DNA of 64,000 nucleotides from Candidatus Poribacteria bacterium. GTDB lineage: Bacteria > Poribacteria > WGA-4E > PCPOR2b. Positions 10,918 through 48,785 of this stretch are shown in pieces (the stretch's first letter is position 1; the number at the start of each line of letters is the position of its first letter). A program made the translations under genes and the position numbers. The DNA is taken from assembly GCA_965208675.1 (NCBI GenBank), contig OZ242351.1, positions 3,456,001 to 3,520,000 on the forward strand. The letters run 5' to 3'. The notes under the pieces were generated by a model. The model saw only the letters and a list, made by a program, of their open reading frames with translations, searched no databases and was not told where the DNA came from.

Positions 10918-12741
10918 ATGTGCGGAATTGTCGGATATATCGGCAACAATTACGCTGATTCTGTATTGTGGACAGGATTGGAAAGACTTCAATACAGAGG
11001 ATATGATTCAGCAGGTATCGCTGTTATCCACGACGGCGAGTTGAACCTCAGGAAAATCGCAGGTAAGCTACACGTTCTAGACGAGAGCCTTCGCCAGAAA
11101 CCTATGCACGGCCCCATCGGCATTGGGCACACACGATGGGCGACACACGGCGAGCCAAATGAACGAAATGCTCACCCGCAAGTGGACGAAAATCAAACGA
11201 TAGCTGTCGTTCATAACGGTATTATTGAGAACTATCTTCAACTCCGGCAGGAGTTGCAAGCACGCGGTCATGAATTCATATCCGATACGGACACGGAAGT
11301 GCTCGTACATTTATTTGAAGAAAATGTAAATGGAGATATTGTCGATGCCGTCTGCAGGACGCTTCAGCGATTGGATGGGACGTTTGCCGCCGCCTTTATT
11401 CACCGGCAGTTTCCAGATTGCATTGTTGCTGCTCGACGCAATAACCCGCTTATATTGGGACTAGGAACAGGTGAGAATTTCGTTACTTCGGATTTGCCTG
11501 CGCTGCCTACCCGCACGCAGCGAGTGATTTATCTTGAAGATAATCAGGTTGCTGTTGTAGGTCGAGAGCACATTGAGGTGCGGACGATATCCGGTGAGCG
11601 AATTGAACCGCAGATTCATTCCATTCATCTGAGCGCCGAAACGATCGATAAAGGGGACTACCCGAACTTCATGCTCAAAGAGATACACGAACAACCTGAT
11701 GTCTTACGGCGTTTATACAACGCGTATGTGACGGATACGATGAGGGTTGATTTCGGGGAGTTTGGATTGGATGACTCATTTCTGGGCAAAGTCAACCGTA
11801 TTGTAATACAGGCGTGCGGCACATCATGGCATGCGGGCTTAATTGGCAAGTATTTGCTGGAGCGGTATACACGGATTCACACAGAGGTGGACATCTCCTC
11901 CGAATTCCGCTATCGAAATCCAATTTTGGAGGGTGATACGCTCGTCATTTCAATTTCCCAATCCGGCGAAACCGCCGATACGCTGGAGGGGCTGCGCGAA
12001 GCACGTAGCAAGTCCATGCCGGTATTGGCTATCTGCAACATGATTAACAGTACCATTGCTCGGGAAGCAGATGCCGTGATAGACATTCACGCCGGATTGG
12101 AAATTGGTGTCGCGTCAACCAAAGCCTATACGGCTCAGATTGCCGTCCTTGGACTCTTCGCACTGCATATGGGACAGATTAAGGGGTTGCTAAAATTTGA
12201 AGAAGTTCAACGTTTCCTCGCGGCGCTTCGAAACGCCCCCATTCTTATAGAACGATTTATCCAACAGCAGCAAATACAGGCATGCGCGGAGAAATACAGC
12301 GATGCGGGCGTGTACATATTTCTTGGACGAAGCTACAACTATCCCAACGCTTTGGAAGGTGCACTCAAACTCAAGGAAATTTCATATATTCACGCCGAAG
12401 GGCATCCTGCGGGCGAGATAAAACATGGTCCCATAGCGTTAATCGACGGCAATGTGCCGGTCGTGTGTATTGCCAATAATAGCAGCATCTACTCGAAGGT
12501 CGTCAGCGCCATCCAGCAGGTGCGCGCTCGCGATGGAGTCATCATCGCAATCGCTACCGAAGGCAACACGGAAATCCATGCACACGCTCAGGAGGTTATC
12601 TTTGTTCCGGAAATTGCAGAGGAACTCTCACCCTTGCTGGTTGCGGTTCCGCTGCAATTGCTTGCTTACCACAGTGCCGTTCATCGGGGGTGCGATGTCG
12701 ATCAACCGAGAAACCTGGCTAAGAGTGTTACCGTTGAGTAG
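10918..12741 (+). CDS. glmS: Glutamine--fructose-6-phosphate aminotransferase
   Basis: MCGIVG N-terminus, GHTRWATHG, SQSGETADT, C-terminal PRNLAKSVTVE. Confidence 0.98.
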   Translation: MCGIVGYIGNNYADSVLWTGLERLQYRGYDSAGIAVIHDGELNLRKIAGKLHVLDESLRQKPMHGPIGIGHTRWATHGEPNERNAHPQVDENQTIAVVHNGIIENYLQLRQELQARGHEFISDTDTEVLVHLFEENVNGDIVDAVCRTLQRLDGTFAAAFIHRQFPDCIVAARRNNPLILGLGTGENFVTSDLPALPTRTQRVIYLEDNQVAVVGREHIEVRTISGERIEPQIHSIHLSAETIDKGDYPNFMLKEIHEQPDVLRRLYNAYVTDTMRVDFGEFGLDDSFLGKVNRIVIQACGTSWHAGLIGKYLLERYTRIHTEVDISSEFRYRNPILEGDTLVISISQSGETADTLEGLREARSKSMPVLAICNMINSTIAREADAVIDIHAGLEIGVASTKAYTAQIAVLGLFALHMGQIKGLLKFEEVQRFLAALRNAPILIERFIQQQQIQACAEKYSDAGVYIFLGRSYNYPNALEGALKLKEISYIHAEGHPAGEIKHGPIALIDGNVPVVCIANNSSIYSKVVSAIQQVRARDGVIIAIATEGNTEIHAHAQEVIFVPEIAEELSPLLVAVPLQLLAYHSAVHRGCDVDQPRNLAKSVTVE

Positions 12742-12775
12742 ACAGTCGACATTACTAAGACAAATCATTTAAGCG

Positions 12776-12812
12776 AAGGGAGCGGCACCGCGAGGCGTCT
12801 CTCCCTTTTTTT
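12776..12812 (+). terminator. Probable intrinsic terminator after glmS
   Basis: AAGGGAG...CTCCCTT stem followed by a T run. Confidence 0.6.
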
Positions 12813-13204
12813 GTGGTGAAAATTAGGATGGAAACGCTGCGGAAAATGCCGGATTTCTGGGTGAATCGATGTTGATGGTTACCTTTCACTGTAATGCGCC
12901 GGCCCGCTTGTGGTGCGGGTTCATTGAAATCGCGGGGTAACCAAAAGGTAACCAAGAAAAAAAGATCTGTAGGTCTTTTGGGTGGCTGTAATGCTAAATT
13001 ATTAGCATTCACTATTTAGAGGCGATTCATAAAAAAGATCAGGCGGCGGATCGCCGTGTCAAGGGGAAACAGGAAGCGCAATGCGCAAAATCAGGGAAAG
13101 ATATTGCCAATGGGGTCGTATAGCGTAGATGGCGTGTGGGATAGGGAGACTAGCGCAGAGGATTTGCGGAAGCGGGTAGCGGAAAGAGGGTGGTAGGTTT
13201 TTAA

Positions 13205-13584
13205 GGATGGGTTTCGCAGAAAACTATCACCTTCACTGTTGGCGGAGATTATCGTTCAACCCAACCTACAAAGACTTTACAGATCGGCGTTTGCCTACTA
13301 TATATCGCGGCTGTAAGCTGCTCCCACAGATAGTGTGCCGCGATTCGGAGATTGCTGCTACAGAGAGACGAATTCTTTAAATCATAGCCTATCATTTAAT
13401 CATACAGATCACAGTTCAGACAGTTTTTGGATATGGCGGCGCGTTTGCTTAATGGGTGTCGGTTTGGAAATACGAAAAGCGTTGGGTTACGCTCTGCGCA
13501 TCGTATTTTGTACATCAATAGGTTTCCAGAGCGGTTCGTTGAATTGTAAAATTTTTGGTGAAGACCGCTCAACCCAACCTACAA
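13205..13584. repeat. REP-like repeat cluster, left flank of the cas1 island
   Basis: 13256-13364 closely matches 17325-17434, and 13530-13584 matches 17286-17340. Shared core TCAACCCAACCTAC (GTAGGTTGGGTTGA on the minus strand). Confidence 0.8.
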
Positions 13585-13774
13585 GAACTGCCTACGTAAT
13601 TCAAAGATGAGGTGCTGTAATCCGACGCTTCTTCAAAAATGCGGGGAAAGACGCACCGCCTACCATGGGTGCAAGAGGTGAGATTTTATAAGAGGAGACT
13701 ATCGCCATCCCTATTCGGTCGGTTGATCGCTATTCGCTCAATTGATCGCTTTTCATCGCGGTAGAGGTTGTTAC

Positions 13775-14106
13775 CCCTGCAACGGTGGTTTCCGCCCGCG
13801 ATATCCCCCGACCGCACGTGTCAATCTTGCGAAAAACCGTACACCCCGAAGCGCCGAGGCCAACGTTATTGTTCAGGCCGTTGCGCAAAAATAGATTATT
13901 ACCGTGTATCCACCGTCACTAAAAACCCTGAAAAGTTTTTTACATTCAAGCGAATAGGTGATATATTAAATTGCGAAGAATGCGGCAAGCGAACAAAACG
14001 AACCAACGGCCGCCAGATATACTGTTCAAAACGTTGTTCAGGCCGCGCCGAAAAAGGCGCCATCTCACACATCGTCAGAAGAAGAAAGGTAAATAATGAA
14101 AATTAA
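13775..14106 (+). pseudogene. 5'-truncated phage-like Cys-rich (CxxC...YCSxxC x2) protein inside the giant spacer
   Basis: RTCQSCEKPY...RYCSGRC and LNCEECGK...IYCSKRC. The only start codon (TTG 13768) lies inside the CRISPR repeat. Confidence 0.55.
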
Positions 14107-14152
14107 GTATGAAATCAACACGTCGAGAATCAAAACGAAAGGAAGGTAGTCA

Positions 14153-14362
14153 GTGCGAAAACCAACAACAGAAGATTTATACGCGGAACTGGTGAACACA
14201 ACCACGGGCAAATTTGGCGAGGAGCTGCGCGAAACGTATGAGCCCGTCAAGCATTTAGAAGTACCCAACAAAATTAAAGAACCGCGGGCGTGGAAAGAGT
14301 GGCGTTCCCGTCCGGACGTAGCGAAATTTTTCCGACTAGTACGCCGTTTCGATCATAATTGA
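14153..14362 (+). CDS. Small hypothetical protein inside the giant spacer
   Basis: 69 aa, purine-rich RBS (AAAGGAAGGT) before GTG; convergent with the next gene, with 6 bp between the stop codons. Confidence 0.5.
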   Translation: MRKPTTEDLYAELVNTTTGKFGEELRETYEPVKHLEVPNKIKEPRAWKEWRSRPDVAKFFRLVRRFDHN

Positions 14363-14368
14363 AAAGCC

Positions 14369-15061
14369 TTAATCTTCCAAGGATTCAACCAGTTCGCCGA
14401 ATTCCTCGCTCCAGTCAAAAACCGCTATCGTTTCAACATTTTCGGGATCGAGTATAAAGCCGTCAGTGGGCCATGTCATGCCTATGTCTTTTGCGCGGAT
14501 GACTTGAATAACCGGCTCTTCTATTCCGACACGAGCCACCCAATTCCAGCCGCTTTCAGACGCAATATCGATAGCCTGATCTCTTCCTTCCATGAATTCG
14601 ACCGCGTTCAAGCCTGTGTAGTAAATGTTGTCGCCGTGCGTTGCAACATGGGCGTGAACCTGTTCTGTCAGTGGCGCCTCCGCGGCATCCGGATCATACA
14701 TTTTAAAATCATCAACTACGTCCACAATTGCGTTGGCGTAAGCCGCGGTGTAAATAACAGTTTCATCGCCCTGAGCTATGCTCACCTCTTCGAGTTCGCT
14801 AATGAGGTCTTCTTGATCTTCATAGGGTGATTCGCGAATCTTACGTTCAAGCCGCTTTCGTGTTTGGTCTAATTCTGCCCGCCTTGCCTGAGCTTCGGTT
14901 TTTAGTTCTCTAATTGGTTTGACTAGGTCATCCAACCCCCCTCGCCCTCTACGGCGCCTTCGACATGTTCGCGAATAGCGTCGCCCCAAATGTCCCTTAT
15001 CTCTTGCGCTTCCCCAATGGATTGCGAATATTGCTGATGCAACCTCCCCTTATCCGTCACG
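14369..15061 (-). pseudogene. 3' fragment of a larger foreign acidic/coiled-coil protein gene, frameshifted at a G6 run
   Basis: Frame is open from the repeat edge (VTDKGRLHQQYSQSIGEAQEIRDIWGDAIREHVEGAVEGEGG). One extra G at about 14936-14941 would join it to LDDLVKPIRELK...ESLED*. Confidence 0.55.
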
Positions 15062-15370
15062 CTTTCAGTCCGCTTTTCATCGCGGTAGAGGTTGTTACTG
15101 AAATGCAGTGGTCGGTGGCTAGTGGTTAGTGCCCAGCTTTCAGTTTGCTTTTGATTGCAGTATAGCTAGTGGCCGGCGGTGGAAAACTTTCTTGCCCACG
15201 AAGTTAAATTACTCTGAATCTGTAGTGATGTAGTAGAAACAAGACTATCGCCTTCGCTATCCGTTCAGTTGATCGCTTTTCATCGCGGTAGAGGTTGTTA
15301 CCGACCTCGTGAAGAAAGGTGAAGATTGGACAAACACAGCAGTAGTCCACGTTTGTAAGCTCCATCTCCT

Positions 15371-15399
15371 ATCATGGCAGATACACCCTGTTGTGTCAA
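15371..15399 (-). promoter_or_regulatory. Sigma70-type promoter pointing into the CRISPR repeats
   Basis: TTGACA (15399-15394), 17 bp, CATGAT (15376-15371). Confidence 0.65.
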
Positions 15400-15730
15400 T
15401 GGAAAATTGTTAATGTGCGGCGAGTTAAGTAATCGCCTGTATTGAGGGCGTTCTTGCTCAAATTTTCGCAAATCTACTGATTTCTACCGAATGCCGGCAG
15501 AACTCGTTTTTCGCCAAGCTAATCCGTCGAAAATCGGGCTAAAGTTGCCCTAAACCGCAATCCAATTCTCGTTTACGCACGAGAAAGTTCGCCGAAAATG
15601 CGTATTAATCCGTGTGGCGTCTGGATTTTTCGTTAGCATAGACCTTTCGCAAATCGCCCCGATTTTTCCGCAGAAAACCGATTTGCGAAACGCTCACAAC
15701 ACATCGGCGCAGAACCGGCGAAATTCACAC
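15400..15730 (-). promoter_or_regulatory. Putative CRISPR leader with a 12-bp inverted repeat
   Basis: TTTCGCAAATCG (15645-15656) and CGATTTGCGAAA (15679-15690); third half-site TTTCGCAAATC at 15464-15474. Lies between cas1 and the repeats. Confidence 0.5.
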
Positions 15731-16618
15731 TCAACGCATTTTCCGCGCTGCGGCGTCGGCGTCGGAATCAGGCTCTTCCCACTCGACGTTAAACCTTTTG
15801 TTTATCATGGCAAACACGACTCTATCCACGACGGACTGGCGGAACTCTTCGATAAAATCCAAGACTAAGGACGGTTTGCCGGGGCGGTCGACATGCAGGA
15901 ACCCGGCAAACGGCTCGAGTCCAGCGAGTGACAGCACGCTCCAAACGTGCGAGTAGAGCATCCCGTAACCGTAATTTAGCAGTGCGTTTACATCATCGAC
16001 GGCGCCGCGATGGTTTCGGGTGGTGAAGCGTCCGGTAGGCAACAGCCGTTGGACGCATTCCCAGTAGAGTGCGCCGGCGCGTCCTTCGAGATTGAGAAGC
16101 GTCGAATGCATTGCGTCAACCGGCGTGGTAGTATCCGCGGGCGTTTCCAGAGCGCTCAACTCCGACAGAATCGCCTCAATTTTTGCAATGCGTTCCATGA
16201 GTTCAGAATATTTTTTTGGTGATTGTTTCTTGCGGTATTTTCCGAAATAACGGACGAGATTTACTTGGTTCTTCAGCTTGCCCGCAGCGAACCGTTTGGC
16301 AATCTCCAATCCGCGCACGTCGTGGTAGGCGGCGAGTTGTTCGCGTCTTGAGATTACGGTGGCGGTAAGGGATGGGCTGTTGAGTTTCGCGTACGGTTTA
16401 CCGTTGAAACTGAGGAACGAGATTTCGATGCCGCGCTCGGTACAGGCTTCAATCAGGTCTGAAGAGACACTGACGCCGCGCGAGGCGATAACAATCTGGT
16501 CGAGATCCATCAGTGCGTGTTCCTCTTTTTTCCGCTCCTTGTCTCGGAAACGGACGCTGACGCGCTCGGAGTGTTTGCCAAGATAAGTACCGTAATCGGA
16601 GATAATCAGTTCATTCAT
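15731..16618 (-). CDS. cas1: CRISPR-associated endonuclease Cas1, apparently C-terminally truncated (295 aa)
   Basis: LLNLEGRAGALYW, VNALLNYGYGMLY, GLEPFAGFLH and SLVLDFIEEFRQSVVDRVV (catalytic E/H/acidic residues). Ends about 25 aa after VVDR. No cas2 follows. Confidence 0.93.
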   Translation of the reverse strand: MNELIISDYGTYLGKHSERVSVRFRDKERKKEEHALMDLDQIVIASRGVSVSSDLIEACTERGIEISFLSFNGKPYAKLNSPSLTATVISRREQLAAYHDVRGLEIAKRFAAGKLKNQVNLVRYFGKYRKKQSPKKYSELMERIAKIEAILSELSALETPADTTTPVDAMHSTLLNLEGRAGALYWECVQRLLPTGRFTTRNHRGAVDDVNALLNYGYGMLYSHVWSVLSLAGLEPFAGFLHVDRPGKPSLVLDFIEEFRQSVVDRVVFAMINKRFNVEWEEPDSDADAAARKMR

Positions 16619-16753
16619 TTTTCTTTTCCTAACGTATATTTGTGGGAGAGGCTTCCTAGCCTCGATTATCAGTCAGTCACTCCTTGTGTAAATTTCAACC
16701 TAATTGACTATAGATTACACAGAGATACCGCTTCACGGGCTAGCGTATTATAT

Positions 16754-16782
16754 TTGAAGTTTGTATATACACATGGTATACT
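16754..16782 (+). promoter_or_regulatory. brnTA promoter with palindromic operator
   Basis: TTGAAG, 17 bp, TATACT with a TG extension; perfect palindrome TGTATATACA (16762-16771) in the spacer. Confidence 0.6.
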
Positions 16783-16791
16783 AGTTGTTCA

Positions 16792-16956
16792 ATGGAGTTC
16801 GAATGGGATTCGATGAAGAATCAGCGTAATATTGAAAAGCACGGCATTATACTTTATGTCGTGTACACCACGCGAGGCGACATTCGGCGTATCATTTCAG
16901 CGAGGAGAGCGAATCGCCGTGAAAGAAGAACGTACCGTGAGAGTTTCTCTCAATAA
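16792..16956 (+). pseudogene. brnT: BrnT-family toxin with internal in-frame deletion (54 aa)
   Basis: Hand translation MEFEWDSMKNQRNIEKHGI-ILYVVYTTRGDIRRIISARRANRRERRTY: BrnT N- and C-terminal motifs fused, central part missing. Confidence 0.8.
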
Positions 16957-17221
16957 CCTCCCGAAAAAAACGCAAACCGATTGGGAGAAGGTCAAAAAAA
17001 TGACCGAGGCCGAAATTAACGCGGCGGCAGTATCGGACCCCGATGCCCAGCCGACAGATGCGGCATTCTGGAGAGATGCCGAGATTGTGATGCCCGAACC
17101 TAAACACGCTATATCTCTGCGCGTTGACAGCGATGTGCTCAAGTGGTTTAAATCTCAGGGCAAAGGTTACCAGACCCGCATGAACGCCGTGTTGCGGGCG
17201 TATATGAAAGCACATCAATAG
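16919..17221 (+). CDS. brnA: BrnA-family antitoxin
   Basis: TDWEKV, DPDAQP, ISLRVDSDVLKWFKSQGKGYQTRMNAVLRAY; GTG start overlaps the brnT 3' end. Confidence 0.9.
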   Translation: MKEERTVRVSLNNLPKKTQTDWEKVKKMTEAEINAAAVSDPDAQPTDAAFWRDAEIVMPEPKHAISLRVDSDVLKWFKSQGKGYQTRMNAVLRAYMKAHQ

Positions 17222-17285
17222 GGAGCCCTCAATCGAGTTTGAAACATGAACCGTGCCGCTATGACACAATTAATACGTCCACAAT

Positions 17286-17592
17286 AGCGATTCGTTAAAT
17301 TGTAAATTTTTTGGTGAAGACCGCTCAACCCAACCTACAAAGACATTACAGACCGGCGTGTGCTTACTACTATATCGCGGCTGGAAGCCGCTCCCACAGG
17401 TGGTTTGCCGCGATTCGGAGATTGCTGCTACAGAATTCGGTGAAGACCGCTCTACCCAACCTACAAAAGCTAATCGGCCGGATGGTTGTATAAAATATGT
17501 TGCGGTGTATTTCGGGCGAGACGGAATTGGATTTGGGTGAAGACTATCGCACTCCTTATTTAGCCCCTTGATCACTCAACCAAACCTACGAC
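17286..17592. repeat. REP-like repeat cluster, right flank of the cas1 island
   Basis: GGTGAAGACCGCTC(A/T)ACCCAACCTACAA twice, plus a 110-bp block matching 13256-13364. Confidence 0.8.
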
Positions 17593-17747
17593 CGAAAGGA
17601 AGAAGACAAATAGTGTGCGGACGATATACGCTTGCAGTAGACACTTAAAATTGATATAGTCATATTCAGTGTATTTAGTTTGATTCATTGACTGAATTCT
17701 AACCAATATTCTGCTAACTGCGTAACTTCTAACAACATTCAATTCTG

Positions 17748-18482
17748 ATGTATAGTTGCTATGCTTCTCCGGCGCGGATATCAAAGGACGCAATCCACAT
17801 TGATGACGCGGAACGCCACCACCTGCTCAATGTGCTGCGCCTCAAAGCAGGCGATTCGGTGCACGTCTTTGACGGCGAAGGCAACAGCTACACTGCAATC
17901 CTTCGTGATACCCACCTCCCCGCACTGTGCGCTACCATAATCAAACATCAATTTCATCCACACACCCCGCCGCATATCACACTTTTCCAAGGTTTGCCAA
18001 AGTCGGACAAGATGGATCTTGTTGTTCAAAAAACAACGGAAATCGGTGTTGACGGAATTGTGCCCACGATTTGCCATCGTTCGATTCCAAAGCGATCGGA
18101 AACTGCCCAAGAGAAGTTGCAAGCGAGGTGGCAGCGGATTGCGAATGAAACCGCTAAACAGTGCAGGCGTTCGCGATTGACCAAGGTACACGAAGCAAAA
18201 GAGATAGAAAGGTGCTTTGCGCAAGCAACACAATTCGACCTGTCAATTTTGTTGTGGGAAAACGAGGAAGAACAGGGAATCAAGGAGGTGTTGCGACGCC
18301 ATAAAAACGCATCATCAGTCGGGCTTTATGTTGGACCGGAAGGAGGGTTTTCGGCTGACGAAACTAAAACTGCTATTCAATGCGGAATACACCCCGCCAC
18401 ACTTGGCCCAAATATCTTGCGTACCGAAACCGCGGGAATCGTGGGTGCGGCGATTGTTATGTATGAATTACGCGAGGCTTAA
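17748..18482 (+). CDS. rsmE: 16S rRNA m3U1498 methyltransferase
   Basis: HHLLNVLRL, QKTTEIGV, VGPEGGFS, LGPNILRTETA. Confidence 0.95.
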   Translation: MYSCYASPARISKDAIHIDDAERHHLLNVLRLKAGDSVHVFDGEGNSYTAILRDTHLPALCATIIKHQFHPHTPPHITLFQGLPKSDKMDLVVQKTTEIGVDGIVPTICHRSIPKRSETAQEKLQARWQRIANETAKQCRRSRLTKVHEAKEIERCFAQATQFDLSILLWENEEEQGIKEVLRRHKNASSVGLYVGPEGGFSADETKTAIQCGIHPATLGPNILRTETAGIVGAAIVMYELREA

Positions 18483-18534: not shown

Positions 18535-18655
18535 CGGAAGCCTCTCCTACAGGCTAATCGAGGTTAGGAAGCCTCTCCTACAGGCTAATCGAGGCTGGGA
18601 AGCCTCTCTTACAGGCTAAATGAGGCTGGGGGCGTCTCCCACAATATAATCGAGT
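18535..18655. repeat. Tandem array of about 31-32-bp REP-like units (about 4 copies)
   Basis: GGAAGCCTCTC(C)TACAGGCTAATCGAGG repeated with variation; a related inverted copy sits at about 16642-16666. Confidence 0.75.
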
Positions 18656-18880
18656 TAGAACGGTACGGATGGGAGTTCCGTTTATGACATTCAATTGCGG
18701 ACCAATTTTTTGCTTGCAAAATCCTAACCGGGTATGATAATATTTAGCCAGACCGCGAGGAACCTTTCCCTACCGGGAAAAACATCGCGGTTGTTTTTTT
18801 GTGTATTGCGCTTTGACACCTTGGTTTGATAATTGAGACTTGTAATTGCTTCAGCGAGACAATCTTTTTAGTACGCCGTT

Positions 18881-46913: not shown

Positions 46914-48785
46914 ATGAATAAGATGTTGTATTTTAGTTTTGCCCTGTTGTTCGTCACAAATTTTTTTCTGCCGGATGCGTTCGCCCAAGATTTCACGCGC
47001 TGGGGTTTGCCTGAAGGTGCGAGTGCGCGACTGGGTAGAGGCTCAATAACAGATGTTGCGTTTTCTCCGGACGGTACGCAACTTGCGGTGGCTAGCAGCG
47101 TCGGGATTTGGCTTTATGATGCACGTACATATCAAGAGACTACCCAATTGACCGGGCATACTTGGGTCAAAAGCGTTGCGTTCAGTCCAGATGGCGGGAC
47201 ACTCGCAAGCGGGAGCGCAAATGGAACCATCCGCCTGTGGGATGCCGCTAACGGAGAATCCCGCAGAACAATCAAGGGGCATACGTCCGATGTTAGGAGC
47301 GTTGTGTTCAGCGCGGATGGCGCGACCCTGGTTAGCGGCGGCGGTTGGGAGGACAATACAATTCGCTTGTGGAGCACGGCTACGGGAGCGTTGCGCACAA
47401 CACTCACGGGGCATGAGTCTGATATTTATTGCGTTGCAATCAGCAGCAGCGGCAAGACAATCGCGAGCGGGAGTAAGGACGGCACAATAATGCTGTGGAA
47501 TGCCGCCACCGGCAAGCTGCGAAGAAAGATTACGAGGCATAGCGGCGGTGTAAGGAGTGTTGTGTTCAGCGCCAATGGAAGGACACTCGCCAGCGCAGGG
47601 GGTTGGAGAGACAACACAATCCGACTGTGGAACGCCGCGAACGGAAAGCTGCGCAAAACGCTCAAGGGACACACTGACGCCGTAACTAGCCTTGCGTTCA
47701 GCCCAGACGGCGCGATGCTCGCTAGCGGCAGTTGGGACAATACTATCCGTGTGTGGGACGCCGCCACTCGGAAAATCCGCATAACACTTGAAGGGCATGC
47801 AGGCGATGTCAACAGTGTGGCGTTCAGCGCGGATGGTGCCACGCTCGCCAGCGGCGGCGGTCGAAAGGACAACACCGTCCGCCTGTGGGACGCTGCCACG
47901 GGTGAGCCGCGGGCAACGCTTTTAGGTTATACGTGCGATGTGTGGAGCGTTGTGTTCAACGCAGACGGCACGACGCTCGCCGCCGGCGGTTGGGACGGCG
48001 CTATCCGCTTGTGGGATGTTGCCAAAGGCGAACCCCGCAAAACCCTCACGGGACATACAGACGAGGTCGATAGCGTTGCGTTCAGCGCCGATGGCGCGAC
48101 ACTTGCCAGCGGGAGTAGAGACGGCACCATCCACTTGTGGGATATTGCCGAGGGTACGATCCGCAAAGAGATTACGGGCCATGCGGGCGATGTCAATAGT
48201 GTTGCGTTCAGCGCCGATGACGCTACACTCGCCAATGACGGGGGTTTGCACGGCACAATTTACCTGTGGAATGCCGCCACGGGCCAGTTTCGCAGCATGC
48301 TCACGGGGCATACGTCCCCGATTAACAGCTTAGTGTTCAGTGCGGATGGCGCCACGCTTGCCAGCGGGAGTTGGGACGCTACCATCCGATTATGGGATGC
48401 CGCCACGGGGGCGCATCGAAAAACGCTAGCAGGGCATACGGAAGCCGTCACGAGTATTGCGTTCAACGCCGACGGCACGGCACTCGCCAGTGAGGGTAGG
48501 GACGGCACCATCCGATTGTGGGATATTGACACCGGAGAGCTCCGCAAAACCCTCACCGGCAAAATGGCGCCCGTCAACAGCATAGCGTTCAGCGCGGATG
48601 GCGCCACGCTCGCCAGCGGGTGCTGGGACGCCGCCATCCGATTGTGGGACATTGACACGGGAGAACTCCGCAGAATACTCACTGGACATACCGGCGGTGT
48701 AACTAGCGTTACCTTTGGAGCCGATGGCGCCACGCTTGCCAGCGGGAGTATGGACGGTACAATTCTGCTCTGGGAACTCCCGTAG
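46914..48785 (+). CDS. Secreted WD40-repeat protein (about 14 repeats)
   Basis: Signal peptide, WGLPEGASARLGRG, repeated GH...V.SVAFS.DG.TLASGS.D.TIRLWD. Confidence 0.95.
   Translation: MNKMLYFSFALLFVTNFFLPDAFAQDFTRWGLPEGASARLGRGSITDVAFSPDGTQLAVASSVGIWLYDARTYQETTQLTGHTWVKSVAFSPDGGTLASGSANGTIRLWDAANGESRRTIKGHTSDVRSVVFSADGATLVSGGGWEDNTIRLWSTATGALRTTLTGHESDIYCVAISSSGKTIASGSKDGTIMLWNAATGKLRRKITRHSGGVRSVVFSANGRTLASAGGWRDNTIRLWNAANGKLRKTLKGHTDAVTSLAFSPDGAMLASGSWDNTIRVWDAATRKIRITLEGHAGDVNSVAFSADGATLASGGGRKDNTVRLWDAATGEPRATLLGYTCDVWSVVFNADGTTLAAGGWDGAIRLWDVAKGEPRKTLTGHTDEVDSVAFSADGATLASGSRDGTIHLWDIAEGTIRKEITGHAGDVNSVAFSADDATLANDGGLHGTIYLWNAATGQFRSMLTGHTSPINSLVFSADGATLASGSWDATIRLWDAATGAHRKTLAGHTEAVTSIAFNADGTALASEGRDGTIRLWDIDTGELRKTLTGKMAPVNSIAFSADGATLASGCWDAAIRLWDIDTGELRRILTGHTGGVTSVTFGADGATLASGSMDGTILLWELP

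What the first reader, a model, noticed from the sequence alone, without database searches (positions are those of the whole stretch)
13735..15098. 1,287-bp 'giant spacer': kilobase-scale foreign coding DNA between two CRISPR repeats
Seen: a perfect 37-bp repeat (15062-15098) and a variant repeat with an exact 28-bp core (13747-13774) lie in the same orientation, separated by 1,287 bp (13775-15061). The next spacer is a normal 38 bp. I found no repeat inside the insert, no transposase, and no obvious terminal inverted repeats. Known: Cas1-Cas2 acts as a ruler giving spacers of roughly 30-50 bp. Inference: this could be Cas1-mediated capture of long DNA by a cas2-less locus, or recombination of two spacers with their protospacers that swapped a phage segment into the array. 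Either would make the array a gene-capture site, not just an immune memory.
Basis: partly seen in the sequence, partly recalled or inferred. Interest (0 to 1): 0.88.

Follow-up and report, generated by a model that had tools for sequence, protein, structure and literature searches.

The report
Dead foreign DNA between CRISPR repeats
A 1.3-kb piece of broken, mobile-element-like DNA really does sit exactly between two CRISPR repeats, but in a decayed CRISPR locus, and relatives have similar oversized inserts at the old end of their arrays.

Summary
A perfect 37-nt repeat (15062-15098) and an exact 28-nt repeat core (13747-13774) bracket 1,287 bp. One independent contig spans the whole stretch at the same depth as the flanks.

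The locus is a wreck of a type I-B system. The syntenic relative G002 has cas6-cas8b-cas7-cas5-cas3, cas1-cas2-cas4, a leader and 43 repeats. G000 keeps only a cas1 that lacks its last 73 codons and two repeats. So "cas2-less" is a secondary deletion.

The "variant" and "degenerate" repeats are halves of repeats split by a genome-wide MITE.

The insert has no function I can detect. It holds a gene cut 16 codons from its start exactly at the repeat edge and also frameshifted, plus two small ORFs. It has no transposase, inverted repeats or relatives at this site.

Similar MITE-free oversized segments (213-1,909 bp) lie flush between repeats at the trailer ends of 4 of the 15 arrays examined. One is a gene fragment whose paralog shows homology stopping at the repeat's first base. 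Two are complete genes.

Solo repeats also flank ordinary genes elsewhere in G000.

The route of entry is unresolved. I favour recombination at the repeats. Integrase capture of long DNA and spacer-protospacer exchange remain open.

The parts
13189..13695 (.). Cluster of dispersed REP/MITE-type repeats between the glmS flank and the array remnant
   Evidence: Dozens to hundreds of genome-wide BLAST matches on both strands. A second, similar cluster lies at 17286-17580.
13696..13746 (+). Terminal inverted repeat of the MITE ('long form' with a 19-nt internal duplication), abutting the repeat half
   Evidence: The same junction ...TTGAT|CGCTTTTCATCG is seen in MITE-split repeats of G001 and G053.
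13747..13774 (-). R0R: right-hand 28 nt of a CRISPR repeat (written on +; the crRNA strand is -). No left half was found in 12000-18000.
   Evidence: Exact core. Left-half scan.
13775..15061 (.). Oversized inter-repeat segment of 1,287 bp, unique in the genome
   Evidence: No other copy in G000. No DNA match in 100 relatives, plasmids or phages. GC is 48.6% against 49.2% for the genome.
13768..14106 (+). ORF A, 112 aa, with two CxxC...CxxxC zinc-ribbon units. Its only in-frame start is a TTG inside the repeat.
   Evidence: PHROG hits phrog_1271 (annotated HNH endonuclease, E 1e-9, profile positions 178-245 of 361), phrog_1333 and phrog_31911. No tblastn hit in phages. No homolog in the word-index search.
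14153..14362 (+). ORF B, 69 aa, no family match
14369..15060 (-). Gene C pseudogene on the crRNA-sense strand. It lacks the first 16 codons and is frameshifted between about 14896 and 14947.
   Evidence: Residues 17-54 of the G003 full-length homolog (222 aa) align to 15060-14947 in frame -1. Residues 33-213 align to 14896-14363 in frame -3. The conserved N-terminal W..P.IF[FY]RVT motif is missing at the repeat edge. Only 4 other relatives were found among 1.84 billion representatives.
15062..15098 (-). R1: the only complete 37-nt repeat
   Evidence: 0 mismatches. Identical to the repeat of G002's array.
15099..15136 (-). S1: 38-nt 'spacer' with a 7-nt periodicity. It is not homologous to the unit at the same position in G002.
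   Evidence: A similar heptad stretch is seen in G039.
15137..15157 (-). R2L: left half of a repeat, 4 mismatches in 21
15158..15273 (.). Degraded MITE inserted in repeat R2, shared with G002
   Evidence: Alignment with the two G001 MITE-split repeats and with G002. 88% identity to G002 L035 2753-2993 over the whole R1-to-R2 block.
15274..15301 (-). R2R: right half of repeat R2, now next to the leader
15302..15730 (-). Leader. Its cas1-proximal end carries a remnant of the 3' end of cas4.
   Evidence: 86% identity to G002 L035 5980-6468. A promoter-like site lies on the - strand at 15399-15371, not above chance.
15731..16618 (-). cas1, C-terminally truncated (295 aa against 366 aa in G002)
   Evidence: PF01867 E 6e-72. 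TIGR00287 matched only to position 257 of 327. 94% identical to G002 Cas1 over residues 1-293, and the last 73 residues are missing.
16832..17221 (+). BrnA-type antitoxin gene, retained from the island
   Evidence: PF14384 E 6e-19. Homologous to G002 L035 9537-9820.

Best explanation
WHAT IT IS (about 0.85).
- The 1,287 bp are a non-functional piece of foreign, mobile-element-like DNA.
- They lie flush between two genuine repeats at the old (trailer) end of a type I-B CRISPR array.
- The whole locus has since decayed. cas1 is truncated. cas2, cas4 and the effector genes are deleted. The array has collapsed to two repeats, and MITEs have inserted into repeats.
- The crRNA strand is the minus strand, and the leader is at 15302-15730.

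HOW IT GOT THERE (inferred, about 0.3-0.35; the most likely of several routes).
- Entry was by recombination at the repeats themselves, while the system was still whole.
- Two array repeats exchanged with DNA elsewhere that was already flanked by copies of the same repeat. That DNA could have been on a mobile element, on incoming DNA or in the chromosome.
- Such an exchange leaves the cargo exactly flush with repeat edges, whatever the cargo holds.
- The same genome holds such repeat-gene-repeat units outside any array.
- Selection tolerates inserts of this kind only at the trailer end. There they block no younger spacers, so they accumulate there.

SHOWN: the anatomy, the decay, the broken gene, the recurrence in relatives, and the solo repeats.
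INFERRED: the route of entry, its timing and the selective filter.
For: Decay of the locus.
- G002 is syntenic. It has a complete type I-B operon, cas1-cas2-cas4, a leader and 44 repeat hits, that is 43 repeats.
- G000 lacks 1,271 bp (cas4, cas2 and the cas1 3' end), about 9.4 kb (cas3 to cas6, a RAYT gene and a WYL gene) and the 41 further repeats.
- The only Cas2 in G000 belongs to a second I-B locus with a different 30-nt repeat.

The cargo is dead.
- Gene C starts at codon 17 of its homologs, exactly at 15060/15061. It also changes frame.

The segment is real.
- One contig spans it at even depth.

Flush inserts recur.
- MITE-free oversized gaps are G001 631 and 1,538 bp, G003 532 bp, and G006 213, 1,909 and 233 bp.
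- That makes 4 of the 15 arrays examined, counting G000. G045 has a 1,601-bp gap that I did not examine.
- All lie in the last units counted from the leader: gaps 17 and 18 of 19 in G001, 28 of 28 in G003, and 115 to 117 of 120 in G006.
- In G001 an 88%-identical paralog elsewhere in that genome continues through the point where the insert meets the repeat. Homology stops at the repeat's first base.

Cargo varies.
- It includes an internal fragment of a giant methylase-type phage or MGE protein.
- It also includes a complete signal-peptide LRR/GHL15/dockerin gene of a host multigene family, and a complete 60-aa gene with a ribosome-binding site.
- This fits exchange of pre-flanked DNA better than adaptation against invaders.

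Solo repeats outside arrays.
- G000 has 7 further copies. By my own arithmetic chance would give about 0.03. The backwards-pattern control found 0.
- Two of them flank one complete Exo_endo_phos gene. Three lie between ordinary genes.
Against: - Gene C is cut inside its coding sequence by R1, and G001's fragment is cut at both ends. If the donor DNA was already repeat-flanked, the repeats must have sat inside genes there too. That only moves the question back.
- No donor locus or pre-insertion allele was found for the G000 insert.
- The origin of the solo repeats is itself unexplained.
- The left repeat is only a half, so its history is partly lost. A MITE end replaces the other half, and the two [MITE end + core] junctions share 34 identical bases.
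- A Campbell-type integration or a duplication across that 34-nt repeat would give the same picture.
- The trailer-end bias could reflect a mechanism specific to that end and not selection.
- The 15 arrays were chosen from those whose coordinates the searches listed. 35 of 176 genomes carry the repeat.
Confidence: 0.4

Rival explanations
1. Integrase capture of long DNA. When the system was intact, Cas1-Cas2(-Cas4) occasionally joined both ends of a long fragment to the two borders of a repeat. This duplicated the repeat as in normal adaptation, so the segment would be a true oversized spacer. Consecutive oversized units would mark a period when length control failed.
For: - The boundaries coincide with the repeat borders, to the nucleotide in G001.
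- Genes are cut without regard to their limits.
- Oversized units are consecutive in G001 (2) and G006 (3).
- Cargo includes self-type genes, as expected from unselective uptake.
- The 28-nt cores on either side of the G000 insert are identical.
Against: - From recall, the known ruler gives 30-45 nt, and no kilobase product has been described in vivo.
- New units enter at the leader, yet all 7 MITE-free oversized units lie in the last few positions.
- Two G006 units are complete genes with a ribosome-binding site and a stop codon. This is unlikely for random fragments.
- It does not explain solo repeats flanking genes far from arrays.
- The present G000 Cas1 is truncated and has no Cas2 partner at the locus.
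Confidence: 0.22
2. Spacer-protospacer exchange. Two neighbouring ordinary spacers that matched the same mobile element recombined with their protospacers. The repeat(s) between them were replaced by the stretch of the element lying between the two targets.
For: - This gives exact repeat-flush boundaries and cuts genes at arbitrary points, as seen in G000 and G001.
- Primed adaptation in type I systems yields neighbouring spacers from one element (recalled).
- Recombination between phages and spacers has been reported in staphylococci. I recall this, and saw it only cited as a phrase in the listing.
- ORF A has phage-family hits.
- A degenerate second copy of gene C lies beside a terminase gene in G000.
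Against: - It cannot explain complete host-family genes between repeats in G006.
- It cannot explain the solo repeats.
- None of 179 spacers from five genomes matches the insert.
- No protospacer was found, so the PAM is unknown and the predicted internal PAM could not be tested.
- It gives no reason for a trailer-end bias.
Confidence: 0.18
3. Campbell-type integration or duplication across the [MITE end + repeat core] junction. A circular DNA carrying the insert, R1, S1 and the MITE-split repeat recombined with the chromosomal copy of the same 34-60 nt junction. Alternatively, an unequal exchange duplicated that junction.
For: - 13742-13775 and 15269-15302 are identical over 34 nt, and 13727-13775 is 94% identical to 15254-15302.
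- The contig graph is a loop on that node.
- Duplicated spacers within several of these arrays show that unit duplications happen.
Against: - The MITE parts differ at 3 of 20 positions while the cores are identical.
- The left copy is a different 'long form' of the MITE end, also found elsewhere in the genome. This points to two separate MITE insertions at the same target, as in G001.
- It does not explain why the cargo is flush with R1.
Confidence: 0.12
4. Assembly artefact. The assembler jumped from a spacer into a phage or plasmid contig and back.
For: Only that a 34-nt exact repeat brackets a 1,527-bp unit, which short k-mers cannot resolve.
Against: - The genome is one 4.89-Mb contig.
- A separately built contig covers 13746-15298 without a difference.
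- Depth is 24.2 against 23.5 and 22.2 in the flanks.
- The junction at 15061/15062 lies 237 nt from the nearer contig end.
- Four other complete genomes show the same kind of structure.
Confidence: 0.03

Closest known systems
'Long spacers' (100 nt or more) in E. coli, P. aeruginosa and S. thermophilus arrays (Kupczok et al. 2015, PMC4524480; passages read; its supplementary table S4 not seen)
   Same: Non-spacer-sized DNA lies between two repeats of an otherwise normal array. It is rare, with 14 such units in their table.
   Different: Most of those show similarity to transposons. Here there is no transposase, no inverted ends and no MITE end inside. The cargo is flush with the repeat edges and cuts a gene.
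Prophage integration into CRISPR repeats in Streptococcus pyogenes (phiAP1.1; preprint 10.1101/2020.10.09.333658; passages read)
   Same: Mobile DNA is inserted in an array, typically found at the terminal repeat. It interrupts array transcription and can shuttle repeat-spacer units.
   Different: That phage recombines inside the repeat at an 8-bp core and carries an integrase. Here R1 is whole, no integrase is present, and only 1.3 kb of broken genes remain.
MITE or IS insertion into CRISPR repeats
   Same: This explains the 91-nt gap and both 'variant' repeats in G000. It also explains most oversized gaps in the family: G001 x2, G002, G053, G039, G033 x4, G048 x2, G042 and G051.
   Different: The 1,287-bp segment itself holds no MITE end. 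It lies between repeat edges, not inside a repeat.
Solitary repeat units and mini-arrays on viruses and plasmids (Medvedeva et al. 2019; Faure et al. 2019; recalled, not read here)
   Same: Single CRISPR repeats occur outside arrays and could recombine with host arrays.
   Different: The solo repeats found here lie between ordinary chromosomal genes, not on recognisable viruses. No exchange has been observed.
Integron gene cassettes (what it might work like; not a member)
   Same: Promoterless genes sit one after another. Each is bounded by a structured repeat and co-oriented with an upstream promoter. G006 has two complete genes on the crRNA-sense strand.
   Different: There is no integron integrase and no attC. 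The G000 cargo is broken. No expression data exist.

Membership tests
CRISPR array of a type I-B system | Direct repeats identical to those of an array that lies beside a complete cas operon | tested here: met
   The 37-nt repeat is identical to the array of G002. That array lies beside cas6-cas8b1-cas7-cas5t-cas3 and cas1-cas2-cas4 at the syntenic site.
CRISPR array of a type I-B system | Intact adaptation and interference genes at the locus | tested here: not met
   G000 keeps only a cas1 that lacks 73 C-terminal residues. cas2, cas4 and cas3 to cas6 are deleted.
Canonical spacer | Length set by the Cas1-Cas2 ruler, 33-45 nt in this repeat family | tested here: not met
   The segment is 1,287 nt. 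Ordinary gaps in G002, G036, G001 and G003 are 33-45 nt.
Canonical spacer | Boundaries exactly at the repeat edges | tested here: met
   The segment runs from 13775 to 15061 between ...GTTGTTAC and CTTTCAG.... Homology of gene C begins at 15060. The equivalent G001 junction was checked against a paralog.
Canonical spacer | Derived from an invader, with a protospacer and PAM identifiable | tested here: inconclusive
   There are weak phage-family hits for ORF A only. No source was found in phages, plasmids, viral contigs, metagenome contigs or 100 relatives.
Insertion sequence / transposon | Transposase gene, terminal inverted repeats, target-site duplication | tested here: not met
   No transposase family. 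0 inverted pairs of 14 nt or more. No MITE end.
Prophage or integrative element using the repeat as attB | Integrase gene and a repeat split into attL and attR | tested here: not met
   No integrase. R1 is complete. The left repeat is split, but by a MITE end on its outer side.
Casposon / Cas1-solo element | Cas1 with a family B polymerase, bounded by inverted repeats | tested here: not met
   This Cas1 is 94% identical to the I-B Cas1 of G002. There is no polymerase and no inverted repeats.
MITE (for the split repeat R2 and the end at 13696-13746) | Short non-coding element with terminal inverted repeats, many copies and a target duplication | tested here: met
   The G001 copies are about 170 nt with inverted ends and a 12-nt duplication, CGCTTTTCATCG. 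G000 has 202 copies of the end with at most 6 substitutions. The G000 and G002 copy is shorter and degraded.

The most novel reading that the evidence does not exclude
In this planctomycete repeat family the CRISPR repeat may double as a cassette boundary. Kilobase DNA, including whole genes, would be moved in and out flush between repeats. This would happen at array trailer ends and at solo repeats elsewhere in the chromosome. The cargo would mostly be co-oriented with array transcription. It would then be transcribed from the leader and cut into separate messages by Cas6. That would be an integron-like gene-capture and expression platform built on CRISPR parts.
Probability: 0.08. Interest if true: 0.85.

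Novelty: new variant of a known kind. Interest (0 to 1): 0.5.

Why it matters
Oversized inter-repeat DNA is usually dismissed as a transposon hit. Here it is not a transposon. It is flush with the repeat edges and it recurs in several species.

If this reflects a regular process, whether repeat-mediated exchange or integrase capture of long DNA, then arrays can take up and carry genes. Array-based strain typing, spacer catalogues and CRISPR finders that cap spacer length would all miss such units.

For this window the practical message is more modest. The locus is a dead remnant and the insert is a pseudogene fragment. The 'variant' repeats are products of MITE insertion into repeats at one fixed site. 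That site preference is a tidy and apparently undescribed habit of this element.

Tried and rejected
SEARCHES FOR THE SOURCE OF THE INSERT (all empty).
- DNA against 100 relatives, plasmids and phages.
- Gene C and ORF A proteins against phages.
- Gene C in the 5.8-billion-protein word search found only itself. ORF A found nothing.
- The gene C family against viral contigs and metagenome contigs gave pattern hits but no relative.
- The exhaustive HMMER search gave 4 relatives besides the protein itself. They have no Pfam or PHROG family.

SPACER AND PAM TESTS.
- 179 spacers were compared with the insert and the G000 genome, and with 14 non-array loci. No protospacer was found. The PAM stays unknown and the internal-PAM test of the spacer-exchange model could not be run.

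OTHER NEGATIVE RESULTS.
- No Rfam family in the window.
- The weak similarity between the first 13 nt of the insert and G002's spacer next to the split repeat needs 3 gaps, so I judge it chance.
- Repeat remnants were sought at the outer edges of the variable region in G000 and G002. None scored above shuffles (p 0.30-0.42).
- Direct repeats at the two ends of the insert, expected from a single crossover with a circular element, were not found.

CONTEXT OF THE G003 HOMOLOG OF GENE C.
- It lies beside a DnaE-like polymerase gene and is not clearly in a prophage.

ORIENTATION OF THE CARGO.
- The bias towards the crRNA-sense strand is only suggestive.
- 4 of the 7 MITE-free segments are clear: G001 1,538 bp and G006 213, 1,909 and 233 bp.
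- G000 is mixed.
- G001 631 bp and G003 532 bp are ambiguous.

RUNS.
- X1, X2 and X3 held the dispersed repeats, 15071-15268 and the leader, but showed no cover of the insert. With contigs this is not evidence of absence.
- No RNA run was offered.

LITERATURE.
- Phrase searches for 'giant spacer', 'oversized spacer' and the like found no CRISPR paper.
- Searches on interrupted arrays and long spacers found nothing closer than the two papers cited.
- Supplements were not requested.

- The look-up of encoding contigs was stated closed and was not called.
Full report
1. THE OBSERVATION

The 28-nt core occurs three times in the window, at 13747, 15071 and 15274, all on the + strand. None of 100 shuffles gave a match. 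The genome is a single contig of 4,892,038 bases, and these are the only three copies in it.

Arrays of relatives show that the unit is 37 nt, CTTTCAGTCCGCTTTTCATCGCGGTAGAGGTTGTTAC. The base before it is variable. Only 15062-15098 is complete. The gaps between successive repeat-like hits are 1,287, 38 and 91 nt.

The insert has no second copy in the genome. It has no inverted repeats and no transposase.

2. IS IT AN ARTEFACT?

Only assembled contigs of public runs were available. In run X8, which holds 0.99 of the sampled words and is probably the isolate's own data, one contig of 1,553 nt covers 13746-15298 with no difference. Its depth is 24.2, and the neighbouring unique contigs have 23.5 and 22.2.

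The contig ends only where a 34-nt exact direct repeat (13742-13775 = 15269-15302) exceeds the assembler's word length. Contigs cannot formally separate the integrated form from a chromosome plus a 1,527-bp circle. Equal depth and the closed assembly make the integrated form far more likely.

3. WHAT THE LOCUS IS

The neighbours are glmS (10918-12741) and an rsmE-type methyltransferase gene (17748-18482). In the same-genus genomes G001 and G003 these two genes lie 147 nt apart. In G000 and G002 an island sits between them.

Read on the crRNA strand, G002's island carries:
- a WYL regulator and a REP-associated tyrosine transposase;
- cas6, cas8b1, cas7 (Cst2), cas5t and cas3;
- a brnA-like gene;
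- cas1 (366 aa), cas2 and cas4;
- a leader, then 44 repeat hits, that is 43 repeats.

This is a complete type I-B system. The same order, cas1-cas2-cas4, then leader, then array, holds in 10 of the 13 relatives' loci checked. G022, G057 and G045 showed no cas1 in the stretch fetched. The minus strand of the window is therefore the crRNA strand, 15302-15730 is the leader, and low coordinates are the trailer.

Against G002, G000 lacks:
- 1,271 bp holding cas4, cas2 and the last 240 nt of cas1;
- about 9.4 kb holding cas3 to cas6;
- all 41 repeats that G002 has between the split repeat and the leader.

G000's Cas1 is 94% identical to G002's over 293 residues and then stops. The genome's only Cas2 belongs to a second, intact I-B locus with a different 30-nt repeat and 47 repeats. 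'Cas2-less' is thus late decay.

4. THE ODD REPEATS ARE MITE PRODUCTS

In G001 two repeats are interrupted at the same point by an element of about 170 nt. The element has inverted ends and a 12-nt duplication of CGCTTTTCATCG. Its end is the dispersed sequence AGACTATCGCC...GTTGAT of G000. That sequence has 202 copies with at most 6 substitutions, and only the copy at 15245 is followed by the repeat core.

Alignment shows three things:
- 15137-15157 is a repeat's left half.
- 15158-15273 is a degraded element, which G002 shares at 88% identity.
- 15274-15301 is the repeat's right half.

The copy at 13747-13774 is likewise a right half preceded by a 'long form' of the same end. Its left half was not found in 12000-18000.

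The G000 array, read from the leader, is therefore: R2 (split), S1, R1, the 1,287-bp segment, R0 (right half only). The same insertion site is used in G053, a different family. MITE ends account for most oversized gaps in the family.

5. THE INSERT

Gene C lies on the crRNA-sense strand. It has 4 relatives among 1.84 billion representatives and a full-length 222-aa homolog in G003. Homolog residues 17-54 align to 15060-14947 in one frame. Residues 33-213 align to 14896-14363 in another frame. The conserved N-terminal motif is missing because the repeat begins there. The gene is cut at the repeat edge and is also frameshifted.

A degenerate second copy lies at C1:1040683-1040999, beside a terminase large-subunit gene.

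ORF A (112 aa, two zinc ribbons) has weak phage-family hits. It has no start codon inside the insert other than a TTG within the repeat. ORF B has no match.

GC content is like the genome's. No source was found in any collection. No spacer of five genomes matches the insert.

6. RECURRENCE

The repeat family occurs in 35 of 176 genomes of the phylum sample. I examined 15 arrays, namely those whose coordinates were listed.

Oversized gaps without a MITE end are:
- G000: 1,287 bp;
- G001: 631 and 1,538 bp;
- G003: 532 bp;
- G006: 213, 1,909 and 233 bp;
- G045: 1,601 bp, not examined.

All lie in the last units from the leader.

G001's 1,538 bp is one open frame. It starts at a methylase NPPF motif and runs into the next repeat. 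It matches internal parts of giant phage proteins. An 88% paralog elsewhere in G001 continues beyond the junction, and homology stops at the repeat's first base.

G006's 1,909 bp holds a complete gene with a signal peptide, LRR, GHL15 and dockerin. The gene belongs to a family with dozens of host paralogs. G006's 233 bp holds a complete 60-aa gene with a ribosome-binding site.

In G002 the DNA next to R1 is a different 2.2 kb. It holds a 5'-truncated rve gene at the repeat edge and a SocA/Panacea-type gene.

7. SOLO REPEATS

G000 has seven further repeat-like copies outside arrays. By my arithmetic chance would give about 0.03.
- Two, at C1:1532251 and 1533615, flank one complete Exo_endo_phos gene. 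They sit between two 87%-identical copies of a 1.9-kb segment that is single-copy in G001 and G003.
- Three lie between ordinary genes near 3.03 Mb.

8. MECHANISM

Three routes give repeat-flush cargo:
- exchange at the repeats with DNA that is already repeat-flanked;
- integrase joining of a long fragment;
- double recombination of two spacers with their targets.

The intact host genes and the solo repeats favour the first route. The genes cut at repeat edges favour the other two. The trailer bias fits none directly, and may reflect that inserts there silence no younger spacers. I rank them 0.3-0.35, 0.22 and 0.18. Capture by the present truncated, cas2-less Cas1 is not supported.

9. KNOWN PARALLELS

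- Long spacers of 100 nt or more are recorded in other species, mostly as transposon hits (PMC4524480, passages).
- A phage is known that integrates into repeats, usually the terminal one (10.1101/2020.10.09.333658, passages).
- Neither parallel has flush, transposase-free, gene-cutting cargo.
- My phrase searches found no description of such units.

10. VERDICT

The structure is real and its cargo is dead. The recurrence in relatives and the solo repeats make this a moderately interesting variant of array interruption.

Noticed in passing
G000 C1:1532251-1533651 (L074 6252-7652): Two solo CRISPR-type repeats (G006-like variant) flank one complete 367-aa Exo_endo_phos gene on the crRNA-sense strand. 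The unit sits between two 87%-identical copies of a 1.9-kb segment (L074 4150-6042 and 7862-9752) that is single-copy in G001 and G003 and not found in G002.
   Followed up: partly
G000 C1:3033563, 3036858, 3042431 (L075); also C1:845709 and C1:3759957: Further solo repeat-like copies lie between ordinary host genes (TRL-like, DUF4159, TonB_C). At the 3.03-Mb trio they have the same orientation as the surrounding genes. One copy is a left half followed by a MITE-like end.
   Followed up: partly
window 13189-13750 and 17286-17580; genome-wide: A MITE family with ends GATCA(A/G)GCGAC(C/T)GGATA(G/A)GGAGCGCGATAG inserts into this CRISPR repeat at one fixed site, duplicating CGCTTTTCATCG. This is seen in G001, G002/G000 and G053, and MITE-containing gaps occur in G039, G033, G048, G042 and G051. 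G000 holds 202 copies of the end. REP-like clusters flank the cas1 remnant.
   Followed up: partly
window 12742-17732: The whole CRISPR-cas island of G000 and G002 lies directly downstream of glmS, between glmS and rsmE. G001 and G003 have these two genes 147 nt apart and carry their I-B locus elsewhere. G002's island holds a REP-associated tyrosine transposase gene and an rve fragment.
   Followed up: no
window 15099-15136; L035 2790-2828 and 7320-7441: The 38-nt 'spacer' S1 has a 7-nt periodicity. G002 has a different heptad repeat at the same position, and that repeat matches a tandem repeat between its cas1 and cas2 and many dispersed sites. G039's MITE-containing gap starts with a similar (CAGTGGT)n stretch.
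   Followed up: no
L036 14465-15502 (G001): The trailer flank of G001's array holds a 325-nt unit repeated three times (80-88% identity). Each unit carries a stretch that ends like a CRISPR repeat (GGATTGAAAG). G003 has one copy.
   Followed up: no
window 18536-18658: A tandem 31-nt repeat (GGAAGCCTCTCCTACAGGCTAATCGAGG...), 3-4 copies, lies between rsmE and rimP. Related single copies lie at 13315 and 17383.
   Followed up: no
G000 C1:102875-105954 (L004): A second, intact type I-B locus (cas6, cas8b, cas7, cas5, cas3, cas4, cas1, cas2) has 47 repeats of a different 30-nt unit. Several spacers are duplicated within the array.
   Followed up: partly
G000 C1:1037000-1044000 (L039): A prophage-like stretch holds a DNA methyltransferase, a terminase large subunit (phrog_38, E 3e-58) and a degenerate copy of gene C.
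   Followed up: partly
window 48324-48756: A 126-nt tandem repeat (about 3 copies, 71% matches) inside coding sequence, probably a WD40/beta-propeller-type protein repeat.
   Followed up: no
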